This document shows, piece after piece, positions 4,835 through 61,130 of a DNA stretch of 64,000 nt; the stretch's first letter is position 1, and the number at the start of each line of letters is the position of its first letter. The notes beneath the pieces are model-generated. The model was not told the origin of the DNA. It ran no database searches and was given only the letters and a program-made list of their open reading frames with translations. The stretch covers positions 68,448,001-68,512,000 of the forward strand of contig NC_042999.1 in assembly GCF_006345805.1 (NCBI RefSeq), read 5' to 3'. The position numbers and the translations under genes were made by a program. Source of the stretch: Octopus sinensis (Eukaryota).

Positions 4835-6037
4835 CTAGCTGAGGTTGACCCGCTCTACGCGCGGGTAAGAGTGTGGTTGTTACTTTCTGTTGCTTCCTTT
4901 CAGCACGTAAAAAGCACCATACGAACGTGGCCGATTGCAGCGCCGCCTTGACTGGCTTCTGTGCTGGTGGCACGTAAAAAGCACCAACCGATCGTGGCCG
5001 CTGCCAGCCCCCCTGGCACCTGTGCGGGCGGCACGAAAAAAGCACCCACTACGCTCACAGAGTGGTTGGCGTTAGGAAGGGCATCCACCTGTCGAAACAC
5101 TGCCAGATCAGACTGGAGCCTGGTGCAGCCTCCTGGCTTCCCAGACCCCTGTCAAACTGTCGAACCCGTGCTAGCACGGAAAACGGGCGTTAAACGATGA
5201 TGATGATGATGATGATTCTCCCTCTTTGTTTCTTTCTCCTTTCTCTCTCACTTTCCCCACTCTCTTACTCTTCCTTTCTCTCGGACTCTCCCTCGCTTTC
5301 TCTTACTCTCTATCTTTATGTATCTCTCTCCCATTTATAAACAGCAAAAGATCTTGAGTAAGTTGAGAAATAAAATATTTAGAAAGATCAATCATAAATA
5401 TCAGGCAGTTACAAAGGAAAGGTCTGCTTCAAGACAGACAGCAAAACACTAACATTAAAAAGGGACAGACGAACTTGCGAGCTGAATAAAAATAATAAAA
5501 TATTGGAAACCAAAGTGTGAAGGGATAGAATTTGAGGATAGTAGAGTCACCATGGCTGGCATTTCTTAACGACGGACAGCAACGTATTGACAGTTCAACG
5601 GCTGGCGTAAAATTTTGAACTTGATGTAAAAGAAAATCCCTAAAAACCAAGTTTTGACTTGATTCTTTCTCACGACAGTAGACTCACGATGGCAAGCATT
5701 CAAAACTTCTTCATCGTGGACGGCAACACATTGACGATTAAAAGGCTGGCGCAAATTTTTTAGCTTGATGTAACAGAGAATTGCTAAACACGCGCTCCTT
5801 TAAATTTTAATCCCCTTCCAGTCCCATTTATACCCCTTCTCACCTTTTGGTTAATATAACCCGATTTTATTTGGGTCTACTGGGGCCACATTTTATAAGA
5901 TGAGGACTCAACCAAGTTTCCCAAGTTCTGGTCATAGACCATAGAACACTCAACCAAGTTTCCCGAGTTCTGGTCATAGACCATAGAACACTAAACCAAG
6001 TTTCCCGAGTTCTGGTCATTTGCAGAATAAATAGAGA
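4835..6037 (-). mobile_element. Helitron-like non-autonomous element (interrupted by SINE)
   Basis: Minus-strand 3' end: hairpin ACCCGCGCGTAGAGCGGGT followed by CTAG|T in a (TA)n site; 41-bp internal tandem repeat at ~5907-6020; far boundary uncertain. Confidence 0.45.
4866..5216 (+). mobile_element. SINE 3' part with (GAT)n tail
   Basis: Internal repeats GCACGTAAAAAGCACC, then GTGGTTGGCGTTAGGAAGGGCATCC motif and GTTAAAC(GAT)n tail as in RTE-partner SINEs. Confidence 0.75.
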
Positions 6038-6256
6038 CGGCGGAGGTGGCAGACGTCGTTGCAATGTAAACATGATTTGTTATAAGAGAAAGATTGTCCA
6101 GATTGTGTGTTGGTGGTGGCGATGATAATTATCATTAGGAAAAAGAGTGAGTGAGTGAGGAAGACATACATAAGTTGTGGCGATGATAATTGTAGACCCC
6201 TTTTCACATTTTGATGAAGAGAACCCGATTTCATTCGGGTGTACTGGGGCCACATA

Positions 6257-6303
<47 letters not shown>

Positions 6304-6449
6304 ACGCTGTAGAAATTAAATTAGAGATAAAACCACTAATAGGGAAATGAAACAGTAAAAAACCAAAAACAAAAACATAAAAATAAAAATATATTAGATA
6401 TATGTATATATATATATATATACTTTATTTTAAGCAGCAGAAAATTCAA

Positions 6450-6499
6450 CAAAATCTGTTACTCTGAGTTTCTCGTTGCCGTTCATCAGACAGTTTTTG
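6450..6499 (-). ncRNA. Minimal type I hammerhead ribozyme motif (mirror copy)
   Basis: Exact reverse complement of 6550-6599. Confidence 0.7.
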
Positions 6500-6549
6500 C
6501 TAGAATGGAACATATATATTAATATATTAATATATATGTTCCATTCTAG

Positions 6550-6599
6550 CAAAAACTGTCTGATGAACGGCAACGAGAAACTCAGAGTAACAGATTTTG
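6550..6599 (+). ncRNA. Minimal type I hammerhead ribozyme motif
   Basis: CTGT-CTGATGA-ACGGCAACGA-GAAAC-TCAGA-GTA-ACAG: intact core, stem I CTGT/ACAG extendable, weak stem II, near-palindromic stem III. Confidence 0.7.
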
Positions 6600-13263: not shown

Positions 13264-13840
13264 GCTGGCAGAAACATTAGCACGCCGGGCGAAATGCCTA
13301 GCGGTATTTCGTCTGCCGTTACGTTCTGAGTTCAAATTCCGCCGAGGTCCATTTTGCCTTTCATCCTTTCGGTGTCGATTAAATAAGTACCAGTTACGCA
13401 CTGGGGTCGATATAATCGACTTAATCCGTTTGTCTGTCCTTGTTTATCCCTTCTGTGTTTAGCCCCTTGTGGGTAGTAAAGAAATAGGTATTTCGTCTGC
13501 CGTTACGTTCCGAGTTCAAATTCCGCCGAGGTCCATTTTGCCTTTCATCCTTTCGGTGTCGATTAAATAAGTACCAGTTACACACTGGGGTCGATATAAT
13601 CGACTTAATCCGTTTGTCTGTCCTTGTTTATCCCTTCTGTGTTTAGCCCCTTGTGGGTAGTAAAGAAATAGGTATTTCGTCCGTCTTTACGTTCCGAGTT
13701 CAAATTCCGCCGTGGTCGACTTTGCCTTTCATCCCTTCGGTGTCGATAAAATAAACACCAATCGAACACTGGGACCGATGTGATCGGTTAGCCCCTTAAC
13801 CTAAAATTTCAGGCCTTGTGTCTATAGCAGAAAGAAATAT
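13264..13840 (+). mobile_element. SINE family B with internal 184-bp tandem reiteration
   Basis: GTATTTCGTC restarts at 13304, 13488 and 13672. Confidence 0.9.
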
Positions 13841-15080: not shown

Positions 15081-15729
15081 AAAAACTCGACCGACCGTCC
15101 TTGGGTGGGCTTCAACCATCAACATTTTCGTTAACAGCCGAACGCGTTAACCGATTGCGCCACAGAGACACTTAAGAAAAAGAAAAGGAAACCACACAGA
15201 GCGTCACGTCTGGAGTGCCTTTATTCATGGGTCTATCATCAATAACAACACAACAATAATCACTATCAAATACCTCAGCAGCACCATCACCACGGTTATC
15301 AACCAACCCGCAACTATCTCTGCCACCTACGCCGTCACAACGTCGATGTACCACGGCGACCACCAGAAGCGCGTTTCTATTACGATACCACCGAGTAATG
15401 GTGCAAAACAGAAGTACATCACACACACGCCGCGGTCTGCCTTTTCAGTTTGGCCAAGGCTGGTTGTTGGTCAGTCACAGGACAATTGATGTGTGCTCAA
15501 GCTAAAACTGATAAATGCAAGGGGCGTTCGTAATTTGCTCGCAACGACGATCACAATGGCCACCCACACAGGTCGTCTCCTAAAATAAGATATAAAAAAA
15601 AGATGGGTGGATATGTTACAGGACTGACTGTTCATATGGTTCAGGATTTAAGATGTTAAGAAAAGCTGGTGAGGCGAGCTTAAGTATCTATGTACACACA
15701 CACGCACATTGATGTGTGTGTGAATGATT

Positions 15730-32868: not shown

Positions 32869-33532
32869 TGGAAATCGTGGCTGAGGTTAGTATCACGCTT
32901 TGAATATATATATATATATTATATATATATATATATTAATATATAGATATATATATATATATATTATAGAGAGAGGAGAGAGAGAGAGAGAGAGAGGAGG
33001 GGAAACTGACCAAGAAAAGACGAAGACAGGTGGTGTAGACAACAAACAGATGTATTAGTATAACGCTCGGGAAGTGAAAAAGTCTTTATACGCGAAACAT
33101 TATATATATTAATGTACACATACGAACAACATATACTCATATGTATGTATTATATTATATTAGTATATATATATATAAATATATTATATATATATATATA
33201 TATATACGGGAAGCATTATATATAACAGATTAATGCAAACATTAACTATACTACATACATGTGTCTATGTGTGTACATATACGAACACACATACACTCAT
33301 ATATGTATAATATTATATATATATAATATAATATATATAATATAATTACAAGCAATAAGGGTTTAGCAACGAGTTGCCTTACCACATACCGAATTTAGAA
33401 ATAGCAGTCAAAGGGTTAAGCTATTTCTTCTACTAAAAAGGGAGATCTCAGTAAAAACAGCATTTGGAAGGCAGACACAAACAGGTAAGAGAGAATGAAT
33501 TGACTGCAATCTATCATACATTTTTTTAGTTA

Positions 33533-33646
33533 TCCACGGACGTACGTTTCGAAATCAAGTTTTAAGGAAAGCATAAGAATTAAATATTAAATATTAAATA
33601 ATAAATAATTCTATCTTACCGAAACTTCTTTTCTCTTCAGCGCAGA
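33533..33646 (-). ncRNA. Type I hammerhead ribozyme motif with long stem II
   Basis: Minus strand TCTGCG-CTGAAGA-GAAA...TTTC-GAAAC-GTAC-GTC-CGTGGA. Confidence 0.85.
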
Positions 33647-34131
33647 ATACTATAATCATAAATGATTCTATATTGATTTTGAGATACCAGAAGGCACCAA
33701 CTCACTCAGTATCAGAGCGAGCTAGAATCCGCAACTGGTATCACGAATTCAATTTGTGAAATGAAACGATTGTGTAAACAGCCCCTTCCACCCGCGTGTA
33801 GCCAAAACAAGATGCTGTGGTCATCTACTGAGATAAAAAATGGTATCCGTAATAATGAAGGGTGAATTAATTAATTTGGAAAAAATTATCAATTACACCA
33901 AGTAGTCTTCGGCATGTAAAAGCCTCATTCGAGGAAAAGTAGTAATACTAAGCAATAAGGGTTTAGCAACGAGTGCCTTACCACATACCGAATTTAGAAA
34001 TAGCAGTCAAAGGGTTTATAGCTATTTCTTCTACTAAAAAGGGAGATCTCAGTAAAAACAGCATTTGGAAGGCAGACACAAACAGGTAAGAGAGAATGAA
34101 TTGACTGCAATCTATCATACATTTTTTTAGT

Positions 34132-34245
34132 TCCACGGACGTACGTTTCGAAATCAAGTTTTAAGGAAAGCATAAGAATTAAATATTAAATAGTAAAAAT
34201 TAAATAATTCTATCTTACCGAAACTTCTTTTCTCTTCAGCGCAGA
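34132..34245 (-). ncRNA. Type I hammerhead ribozyme motif with long stem II (second tandem copy)
   Basis: Same core and stems as 33533-33646, offset by 599 nt. Confidence 0.85.
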
Positions 34246-34694
34246 ATACTATAATCATAAATGATTATATATTGAATTTTGAGATACCAGAAGGCACCAG
34301 CTCCACTCAGTATCAGAGCGAGCTAGAATCCGCAACTGGTATCACCGAATTCAATTTGTGAATGAAACGATTGTGTCAACAGCCCCTTCCCACCCTCGTG
34401 TAGCCAAAACAAGATGCTGTGGTCATCTACTGAGATAAAATATGGTTATCCGTAATAATGAAGGGTGAAATTAATTAATTTGGAAAAATTATCAATTACA
34501 CCAAGTAGTCTTCGGCATGTAAAGCCTCATTCGAGGAAAATTTAAGTAATACTAAGCAATAAGGGTTTAGCAACGAGTTGCCTTACCACATACCGAATTT
34601 AGAAATAGCAGTCAAAGGGTTATAGCTATTTCTTCTACTAAAAAGGGAGATCTCAGTAAAAACAGCATTTGGAAATTAATTAATTTCACCCTTC

Positions 34695-34753
<59 letters not shown>

Positions 34754-47320: not shown

Positions 47321-47457
47321 CATGTGTGACTATGTTTCTCTCTCTCCCTCTCTCTCACACACACAAACTGTTTGCATATTCGCAAAAACATACGCACACT
47401 TGTACACACGTACATATGCATTTCAGTCGGTAAAGCATCAGATTATATATATATATA

Positions 47458-48131
47458 ATCTCCCTTTTAGTAGAAAGAATAGCTATAACTCTTTGACTGC
47501 TATTTCTAAATTCGGTGTGTGGTGAGGCAAGTCGTTGCTAAACCCTTAATTGCTTAGTATTACTTAAATTTTCCTCGAATGAGGCTTTTACATGCCGAAA
47601 TCTACTTGGTGTAATTAATAATTATTCCAAATTAATTAATTTCACCCTATATTTTTACTGATAACCATATTTCATCCAGTAAATGACCACAGCATCTTGT
47701 GTCTTGGCTGCACGCGGTGGGAAGGGGCTGGTGACACAAACTTTCATTCACACTTTGAATTGGTGGTACTGGTAATGGCTTTAGCTCGCTCTGATACTGA
47801 GTTGAGACGATGCCTTCTAGTATCCTCGAATTTATATACAATTTTCATAATTGTAGTGTCCTACGCTGATGAGAAAAGAAGTTGGGTAAGATAGAATTAT
47901 CTAATTCTTATGCTTTCCTAAAACTTGATTTCGAAACGTACGTCCGTAGGTGACTTAAAATTGTATGATAGATTGCCGTCATTTCATTCTCTCTTACCTG
48001 TCCGTGTTTGCCTTTCAAGTGCTGTGTTTTTACTGAGATCTCCCTTTTACTAGAAAGAATAGCTATAACTCTTTGACTGCTATTTCTAAATTCGGTGTGT
48101 GGTGAGGCAATTCGTTGCTAAACCCTTAATT
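47458..48131 (+). mobile_element. Diverged copy of the hammerhead-bearing unit (~580-bp monomer plus ~94-bp terminal direct repeat)
   Basis: Reverse-complement homolog of the 33350-34699 unit; 47458-47551 repeated at 48038-48131; flanked by (TA)n. Confidence 0.85.
47860..47950 (+). ncRNA. Type I hammerhead ribozyme motif with long stem II
   Basis: CCTACG-CTGATGA-GAAA...TTTC-GAAAC-GTAC-GTC-CGTAGG: canonical core, perfect 6-bp stem I, GUC cleavage triplet. Confidence 0.9.
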
Positions 48132-48236
48132 ACTATATATATATATATATATAATATATAGATAGATATACATACACACACTTATATACATATATATATA
48201 TATATATATATACATATATATATACATACACACACT

Positions 48237-59761: not shown

Positions 59762-60115
59762 TTAAACAAAGTCTTTTTTGAGAATGTGTGTTGAAACGAG
59801 GAAATTAAAATAAAAAAAACAAGATTTGTACTTTTACATTTTTAGTGAATTAGGAAAGAATAGTAAATTATAAAACTGAACGATTTTTTTTTTTTGAAAA
59901 TGAACTATAGTGATGTTTATGAACGACAAGATGATGTGCGTTGATGGTGGTGGCGGTTTGTGTAACTGGTTGATTAGAGAATACAGGAGCATGAGAACAA
60001 ACGTAGAGTTCTCTCTTCAAAAAGAAGAGCTTAAGTGTGATCATTGTTGTGACGGCTCAAACTAAATAATTATTATCTAGACATATTATATTCATACAAG
60101 TGTAAATATATACAA

Positions 60116-60169
<54 letters not shown>

Positions 60170-60170
<1 letters not shown>

Positions 60171-60690
60171 CAGGCCTACTCTCCATTTCTTTTTAGAAGT
60201 GTATAGCCATGAGACACAGACCAGGTATTCCATTCATTTCCCAGCTCAAAGGGGCGAGCCGTGTTCTATGCTCGGGTCAAGGCATAGATTGCAGCCCCCA
60301 ATATCAGTAGCGGGGCCCAACAACATATGGTTTACGCCCGCCACAACATCAAAAGTCACTCATCCGTCCACAAACGCTCTCCGTGCTTTTCTCTCGTTTA
60401 TAAACTCTCTTGCCTCTCTCACTTCAGCACCTCTAACCACCAAAACTTTCCTCACTCTATCTATCCACACTAACCGAGGTCTGTCTAGTTCTGCTGCCTA
60501 CCACTTCAGCCTCCTTCATCACCCTCCTTATCATCCGCCCCTCATCCAAACCACCTCAACATTCGCCTATCCAATTTGGTTGTTAGTTTTTCTCTCAATC
60601 CTCACCCTGTCCATCCGCATCAGACCAACCATATCCCTCAAACATCCCATTTCAGCCTCTCTCAGGCCCCACGTCTCTGCACTATATAAC
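60170..60690 (-). pseudogene. RTE-clade LINE 3' end
   Basis: Minus-strand translation LYSAETWGLREAEMGCLRDMVGLMRMDRVR and RPRLVWIDRVRK, typical post-RT RTE motifs; ends at (TA)n. Confidence 0.8.
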
Positions 60691-61130
60691 ATTCTTTTCT
60701 ACTCTAGGCACAAGGCCCGAAATCTTTTGGGGGATTATCAGTCGATTAGATCGACCCGAGTATGCAACTGGTACTTAATTTATCAACCCCGAAAGGATGA
60801 AAGGCAAAGTCGAGCAAAACGACCCCAGGACTTATTCTTTGTATGTCTAGTACTTATTCTATCAGTCTCTTTTGCCGAACCGCTAAGTTACGGGGACGTA
60901 AACACACCACCATCGGTTTTCAAGTGATGTTGGGGTACAAACACAGACACACAAACACGCACACATACGACGAGCTGTTTTCAGTTTCCGTCTGCCAAAT
61001 CCACTTACAAGGCTTTGGTCGGCCCAAGGCTATAGTAGAAGACACTTGATCAAGGTGCCAAGCAGTGGGACTGAACGCGGAACCATGTGGTTGGTAAGCA
61101 AGCTACTTACCACACAGCCACTCCTGCGCC
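60691..61130 (-). mobile_element. SINE family B fragment fused to SINE family A
   Basis: Family B core switches to family A body at GTCGA (~60810). Confidence 0.8.

What the first reader, a model, noticed from the sequence alone, without database searches (positions are those of the whole stretch)
47458..48131. Diverged sister element whose substitutions preserve the ribozyme fold
Seen: a clearly diverged homolog of the 33-34 kb unit in the opposite orientation. Stem I changes from TCTGCG/CGTGGA to CCTACG/CGTAGG, including T-A to C-G, and every position still pairs. The core differs only at the variable N7 position (CTGAAGA vs CTGATGA), and GAAAC-GTAC-GTC is invariant. The element is a ~580-bp monomer plus a ~94-bp terminal direct repeat. 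Inference: this points to selection on ribozyme structure. A slightly-more-than-unit-length insert is what reverse transcription of a circular or multimeric RNA would leave.
Basis: partly seen in the sequence, partly recalled or inferred. Interest (0 to 1): 0.8.

Follow-up and report, generated by a model that had tools for sequence, protein, structure and literature searches.

The report
Hammerhead retrozyme with two fixed starts
This is one of thousands of copies of a small non-coding mobile element (a retrozyme) that carries a predicted self-cutting RNA; its copies end at two fixed points, and back-to-back insertions nearly always use one of each, which suggests it is likely copied into the genome by Penelope-type retrotransposon enzymes.

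Summary
There is a 580-bp unit plus a 94-bp terminal repeat, with a type I hammerhead (predicted cut after 47944), 83-84% identical to the opposite-strand 33-34 kb array. It is not a lone sister: the core 15-mer occurs 2,928 times in G000, and related 530-600 bp families add thousands more. Across families 12 of 15 hammerhead pairs covary. This is a non-LTR retrozyme, a known class. Copy ends are not freely permuted: all 123 mapped 3' ends fall in two zones (peaks +196 and +299/+306 after the cut), nearly all against (TA)n. In 45 of 46 head-to-head insertions one arm ends in each zone, and both arms carry the same variant. This is the Penelope-like-element (PLE) 'tail' signature, here about 100 nt long and set in an RNA fold conserved across families. 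The terminal repeat follows from a fixed start plus 5' truncation. cDNAs run through the cut site (36 of 40 arms) and build near-identical arrays of up to 14 units. That favours a circular template but does not exclude uncleaved multimers. Cleavage, circRNA and the partner PLE are not shown.

The parts
47458..48134 (+). Retrozyme insertion, about 1.16 units, non-inverted; 5' end truncated, 3' end in start zone 1
47460..48039 (+). One 580-bp unit, 37% GC, no ORF of 90 aa inside it; circular MFE -148.4 kcal/mol, z -4.4 against 25 shuffles
47860..47950 (+). Type I hammerhead: stem I 47860-65/47945-50, core CTGATGA 47866-72, long stem II 47873-47932, GAAA, 2-bp stem III with palindromic GTAC loop, predicted cut after C47944
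47511..47670 (+). Conserved structured domain holding both start zones (branched stem 47511-47599, zone 1 peak 47560, hairpin 47608-47646, zone 2 peaks 47663/47670); inferred RT-binding and initiation domain
48038..48134 (+). Terminal direct repeat of 47458-47554, ending in zone 1 against (TA)n
47445..47459 (.). (TA)n at the 5' junction (inferred target)
48134..48160 (.). (TA)n at the 3' junction (inferred target), start of a long TA-rich tract
33350..34674 (-). Sister-subfamily array, about 2.2 units, two hammerheads, 3' end in zone 1
34673..34700 (+). Short inverted arm of the same array, ending in zone 2 against (TA)n, so the window holds its own one-site-per-arm example

Best explanation
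This is a 5'-truncated copy of a non-coding hammerhead retrozyme that was likely inserted into (TA)n by the reverse transcriptase and endonuclease of a Penelope-like element, probably using a circular RNA as template. Shown in sequence: type I hammerhead with covarying stems; dispersed tandem copies; (TA)n junctions; two fixed 3' end zones about 100 nt apart inside a conserved fold; head-to-head insertions with one arm from each zone and the same variant in both arms; cDNA crossing the cut site. Inferred steps: (1) tandem copies are transcribed and self-cleave to ~580-600 nt monomers, perhaps as dimers through the palindromic stem III; (2) monomers are ligated to circles; (3) a PLE protein binds the conserved domain, nicks (TA)n and primes internally, usually at zone 1; (4) RT runs round the template and stops at variable points, giving anything from ~30 nt to 14 units, and 1.16 units here; (5) when the second target strand also primes on the RNA it uses the other zone, giving the inverted insertions.
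For: Copy number and dispersal. End zones: 75 of 123 ends in zone 1 (50 at +196) and 48 in zone 2; (TA)4 within 25 nt of 122 of 128 arm ends; 45 of 46 inverted insertions mixed, binomial P about 7e-13 at p=0.5; 28 of 31 non-inverted end in zone 1. Same rule in sister families, 22 of 25 read by eye. Arms of one insertion differ by 0.74% on average against 5.4% to the median other arm, 33 of 33 below that median. Arrays are homogeneous with mostly singleton changes (0.3-2.3 substitutions between units). 52 of 54 cut-to-cut units have an intact junction. 36 of 40 arms that reach the cut pass it and none stops within 5 nt. Covariation. Autonomous RT + GIY-YIG PLEs that end in (TA)n at two sites exist in G000. 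Literature: PLE tandem/inverted insertions, one-ended tail and (TA)n bias (PMC8557442); two internal RT starts define the tail (PMC11167929).
Against: No autonomous PLE sharing the unit's sequence or fold was found among about 70 PLE loci looked at (BLAST; covariance model; hits there were nested retrozymes). No cleavage or circRNA data. In the one in vitro PLE system unprocessed linear RNA was the dominant template and start-site use did not differ between strands. In a recent test 8 of 9 predicted frog retrozymes showed no cleavage. One array (L087, 0.9 within) is barely more homogeneous than it is close to another locus (1.4), and only 22 of 33 arm pairs are at least as close to each other as to the best outside arm. 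One inverted insertion of the PLE family (L127) has both ends at site 2.
Confidence: 0.72

Rival explanations
1. Same PLE-type mobilisation, but the template is an uncleaved linear multimeric transcript of a genomic array; circles are absent or a by-product.
For: Crossing of the cut site and identical arms are equally expected. PAc hammerhead mutants insert normally and unprocessed RNA dominates in vitro. The 2-bp stem III may cleave poorly as a monomer (axolotl precedent).
Against: Distinct variants each occur as homogeneous arrays of 5-14 units, which implies passage through one unit followed by re-multimerisation; copying linear arrays with 5' truncation could only shorten them. Sustained selection on the ribozyme across families implies cleavage matters.
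Confidence: 0.2
2. The units are orphan pseudo-LTRs or deletion remnants of an autonomous PLE, multiplied afterwards as satellite DNA by unequal crossing-over (model discussed in bioRxiv 10.64898/2026.07.22.740005).
For: PLE-like ends; the preprint found pLTR homology for 24 of 57 frog families.
Against: No coding sequence joins any sampled copy. Arrays have precise start-zone ends on both arms and identical units on opposite strands. Insertions are dispersed, about one per 2 Mb on C1.
Confidence: 0.05
3. Mobilised by a LINE (RTE or L1 type) with classical twin priming.
For: LINE fragments are common in the flanks; 5' truncation and inversion occur with LINEs (own knowledge).
Against: No poly(A) or 3' repeat tail; starts are internal and fixed at two zones; zone-2 arms run far past zone 1, and the 5' end of one arm does not as a rule meet the 3' end of the other.
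Confidence: 0.03

Closest known systems
Metazoan non-LTR retrozymes (Cervera and de la Pena 2020, PMC7229834)
   Same: Non-coding tandem units with one type I hammerhead each, GC below 50%, no LTR, thousands of copies, self-paired circular fold; short stem III with palindromic loop as in salamander motifs.
   Different: Unit 580-600 nt against about 170-400 nt there (51-972 bp in the 2026 preprint); stem II about 60-83 nt; (TA)n targeting, inverted arms and two start zones are not described in the sections read; circRNA and cleavage not shown here.
Penelope-like elements with GIY-YIG endonuclease (PMC8557442; PAc in PMC11167929)
   Same: Partial tandems, inverted 5'-truncated arm, (TA)n or AT-rich target, two internal RT starts downstream of a hammerhead, tail at one end.
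   Different: No ORF; tail about 100 nt instead of 30-40; full-size hammerhead; near-strict one-site-per-arm use, whereas PAc in vitro showed no strand difference; no sequence match to the PLE families examined.
Vertebrate retrozymes as PLE derivatives (bioRxiv 10.64898/2026.07.22.740005)
   Same: Proposes PLE mobilisation of non-LTR retrozymes.
   Different: Its evidence is co-occurrence and pLTR homology in 35 species (31 vertebrates, 3 insects, 1 coral); it leaves the mechanism open. Here the evidence is insertion anatomy.

Membership tests
Non-LTR retrozyme | Type I hammerhead in each unit | tested here: met
   Core and three stems present, covarying; Rfam models do not hit
Non-LTR retrozyme | Short non-coding units in dispersed tandem repeats, low GC, no LTR | tested here: met
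   580-606 bp units, arrays up to 14, GC 34-37%, no ORF of 90 aa
Non-LTR retrozyme | Stable self-paired monomer fold | tested here: met
   Circular MFE z -4.4 to -6.6 in 4 of 4 units, 25 shuffles each
Non-LTR retrozyme | Self-cleavage activity | not testable with these tools
   Needs transcription assay
Non-LTR retrozyme | Expressed as circular RNA | tested here: inconclusive
   No holder on record as RNA; only assembled contigs available
Autonomous PLE | ORF with RT and GIY-YIG endonuclease | tested here: not met
   No ORF in the unit or attached to sampled copies
PLE-mobilised element | Partial tandem plus inverted 5'-truncated arm | tested here: met
   46 of 77 classified insertions inverted
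PLE-mobilised element | Two internal RT start sites giving a one-ended tail | tested here: met
   123 of 123 ends in two zones; 45 of 46 inverted insertions mixed
PLE-mobilised element | Microsatellite or AT-rich target | tested here: met
   122 of 128 arm ends abut (TA)n
PLE-mobilised element | Sequence shared with the pLTR of an autonomous partner | tested here: inconclusive
   None found in the PLE loci sampled; only top-ranked PLE families were seen

The most novel reading that the evidence does not exclude
A dimeric Penelope RT loads on one circular retrozyme RNA through a conserved ~160-nt fold and starts both target strands from two structurally set sites 100 nt apart, one site per strand, each enzyme rolling round the circle. 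That would be the mechanism behind PLE tails and inverted arms, and direct proof that animal retrozymes are circRNA parasites of PLEs, here a radiation of several families with over ten thousand units in one genome.
Probability: 0.35. Interest if true: 0.72.

Novelty: new member of a known kind. Interest (0 to 1): 0.48.

Why it matters
Animal retrozymes are known, but which enzyme moves them and how is still a hypothesis resting on co-occurrence and pLTR similarity. These young, abundant copies carry a readable insertion signature that points to PLE-type target-primed reverse transcription. They also give a sharp rule (one start site per arm, 45 of 46) and a defined RNA domain that can be tested with intact PLE ORFs from the same genome.

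Tried and rejected
Rfam at gathering and at E up to 10: no hammerhead hit. Free circular permutation of ends: rejected. Pile-up of 5' ends at the cut, expected from linear monomer templates: not seen, 0 of 86 arms within 5 nt. Search for the autonomous partner: an abundant older PLE family, a young family with 781-aa ORFs and a third family, and 20 loci at rarer motif variants or odd spacings gave no coding element with the domain; model R1 hit only nested retrozymes. A hammerhead flanking PLE L259 on both sides proved to lie in a duplicated flank, not in the pLTR. A recalled Pfam accession was not in the library. Expression: no RNA holder listed; contigs of four runs guessed to be RNA cover the element in pieces but cannot show ends, strand or circularity, so they are not used as evidence. 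Earlier findings: none for this genome. R-scape was not available.

Full report
Observation. The stretch 47458-48131 is a 580-bp unit plus a 94-bp direct repeat (97.9%), 83-84% identical to the two opposite-strand units at 33356-34651, with (TA)n on both sides. It holds a type I hammerhead: CCTACG / CTGATGA / 60-nt stem II / GAAAC GTAC GTC / CGTAGG, predicted cut after 47944. Hammerhead nomenclature and the cut position rest on my own knowledge of the motif; Rfam gives no hit.

Family. The window lies in G000 (2.72 Gb, 13,516 contigs). That it is an octopus is my guess from recalled repeat types and comes from no call. A DNA search found 2,355 candidates, of which 40 were scored, the best at 94-97%. 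The core 15-mer has 2,928 exact matches (control 2) and a 15-mer near the 3' end has 5,237 (control 0). Sister families share the layout: a ~555-bp family with short stem II (3,620 pattern matches), others with different stem III loops, and a ~533-bp family (1,532 matches). A motif shared by most families matches 10,881 times (control 2). None of the sampled copies is joined to coding sequence.

Selection on structure. In 13 representatives picked across families, 90.3% of cells pair and 12 of 15 pairs change on both sides. None of 500 shuffles reach this, and slid controls pair 22-45%. The core and stem III never vary except at N7, N17 and the loop. The sequences are related, the structure was drawn from them, and most were found through core patterns, so this is strong but not an R-scape test. 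A second domain (47511-47670) folds alike in 15 representatives: 30 pairs, 4 with double changes, 3 broken cells. Four whole units fold as circles at z -4.4 to -6.6.

Ends. I took the first 100 listed core matches on contig C1 (45 insertions) and the first 100 listed 3'-motif matches (34 further loci). Of these 79, two were dropped (L062, assembly gap; L210, locus too short, later read as mixed from L271). Ends of 14 loci were entered by hand, and neighbouring repeats within a locus were counted once. All 123 3' ends fall in two zones: 75 at +154 to +205 after the cut (50 at +196) and 48 at +249 to +306. Of 128 arm ends, 122 abut (TA)n. Of 77 insertions 46 are head-to-head, and 45 of those 46 have one arm in each zone (P about 7e-13 at p=0.5; exception L082). 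Of 31 non-inverted insertions 28 end in zone 1. Sister families follow the rule in 22 of 25 cases read by eye, with L102, L109 and L133 as exceptions or unclear. The window's 33-34 kb array is another mixed case. Loss of palindromes is unlikely to explain the rule, since mixed insertions with long inverted overlaps persist (L087, L074). 5' ends are scattered. Among 86 arms not selected on the ribozyme, 40 come within 25 nt of the cut, 36 pass it, none stops within 5 nt, and 20 exceed one unit. The flagged copy is a zone-1 start truncated after 1.16 units, which creates its terminal repeat.

Template. Both arms carry the same variant: 0.74% apart against 5.4% to the median other arm (33 of 33 pairs with at least 80 nt overlap), although only 22 of 33 are as close as the best outside arm. 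Long arrays are homogeneous: 0.3, 0.9, 2.0 and 2.3 substitutions between units, against 3.1, 1.4, 4.7 and 10.7 to the nearest other locus. 52 of 54 units have an intact cut junction. Each variant appearing as a uniform array argues for a monomer bottleneck followed by rolling copying. An uncleaved homogeneous multimer is not excluded.

Partner. G000 has many PLEs (5,029 first-look GIY-YIG candidates). They include an older family (635-aa RT + GIY-YIG frame) whose copies end in (TA)n at two sites about 55 nt apart (11 and 16 of 29 ends, by eye), and a young family with 781-aa frames that also ends in (TA)n and shows a short tail in one copy. Neither matches the unit by BLAST or by covariance model. 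The partner is unidentified.

What is known. PMC7229834 (results parts 2-3, discussion, passages; supplement unreadable, and it might list this group) defines non-LTR retrozymes, shows circRNA in coral, mussel and axolotl, and proposes PLE mobilisation of circles. bioRxiv 10.64898/2026.07.22.740005 (parts 1-3 of 5) supports a PLE origin by co-occurrence and pLTR homology, without molluscs. PMC8557442 (passages) describes inverted arms, a 30-40 bp tail often at one end only, and (TA)n bias. PMC11167929 (parts 1-2 of 4) shows two internal RT starts that define the tail, a predicted dimer, no strand difference, and unprocessed RNA as main substrate. PMC6962438 (passages) counts 235 hammerhead-1 hits in giant squid without analysis. 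PMC10886601 (passages) was irrelevant. Seven searches found no description of these families or of PLE-type ends in a retrozyme; the library lacks most subscription journals and repeat databases were not searchable.

Verdict. A real feature and a new member of a known class. The flagged copy is ordinary. The added value lies in the insertion anatomy of the family, which ties a retrozyme to PLE-type priming and gives a testable one-site-per-arm rule. Catalysis, circularity and partner remain inferred. Interest 0.48.

Noticed in passing
L259:674-4377 (+), L262, L268 (G000:C1:207473500-207480500): Young PLE family with many near-identical 781-aa RT + GIY-YIG frames, preceded by a second overlapping frame of about 479 aa; its pLTR has only a degenerate hammerhead-like motif.
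   Followed up: partly
L259:1-653 and 5936-6591: A 656-bp flank is duplicated on both sides of the PLE insertion and holds another hammerhead-like element (also in L026); long target duplication or nested tandem.
   Followed up: no
L275-L294; G000:C1:95539937-95548525: Further ~533-bp retrozyme family with palindromic ACAATTGT stem III, 1,532 matches, arrays of about 17 units.
   Followed up: partly
L091-L120, L211-L226: Sister retrozyme families (540-580 bp) with varied stem III loops and an unpaired first position of stem II (U.U or A.A) share the initiation domain.
   Followed up: yes
L019, L090, L133, L121: Retrozymes of different families and PLEs insert directly beside each other in the same (TA)n tract, suggesting shared targeting.
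   Followed up: no
L122-L154 3' ends: Older PLE family has a hammerhead-like motif with altered core (CTTAAGA in most copies, CTGAAGA in the inverted arms of L127 and L130).
   Followed up: no
window 13303-13754: Tandem repeat with 184-bp period, 2.5 copies, 96% matches.
   Followed up: no
window 15096-15169 (-): Weak tRNA match (32.7 bits), likely the head of a tRNA-derived SINE.
   Followed up: no
window 60106-60927 (+): 273-aa stop-to-stop frame outside microsatellite; not examined.
   Followed up: no
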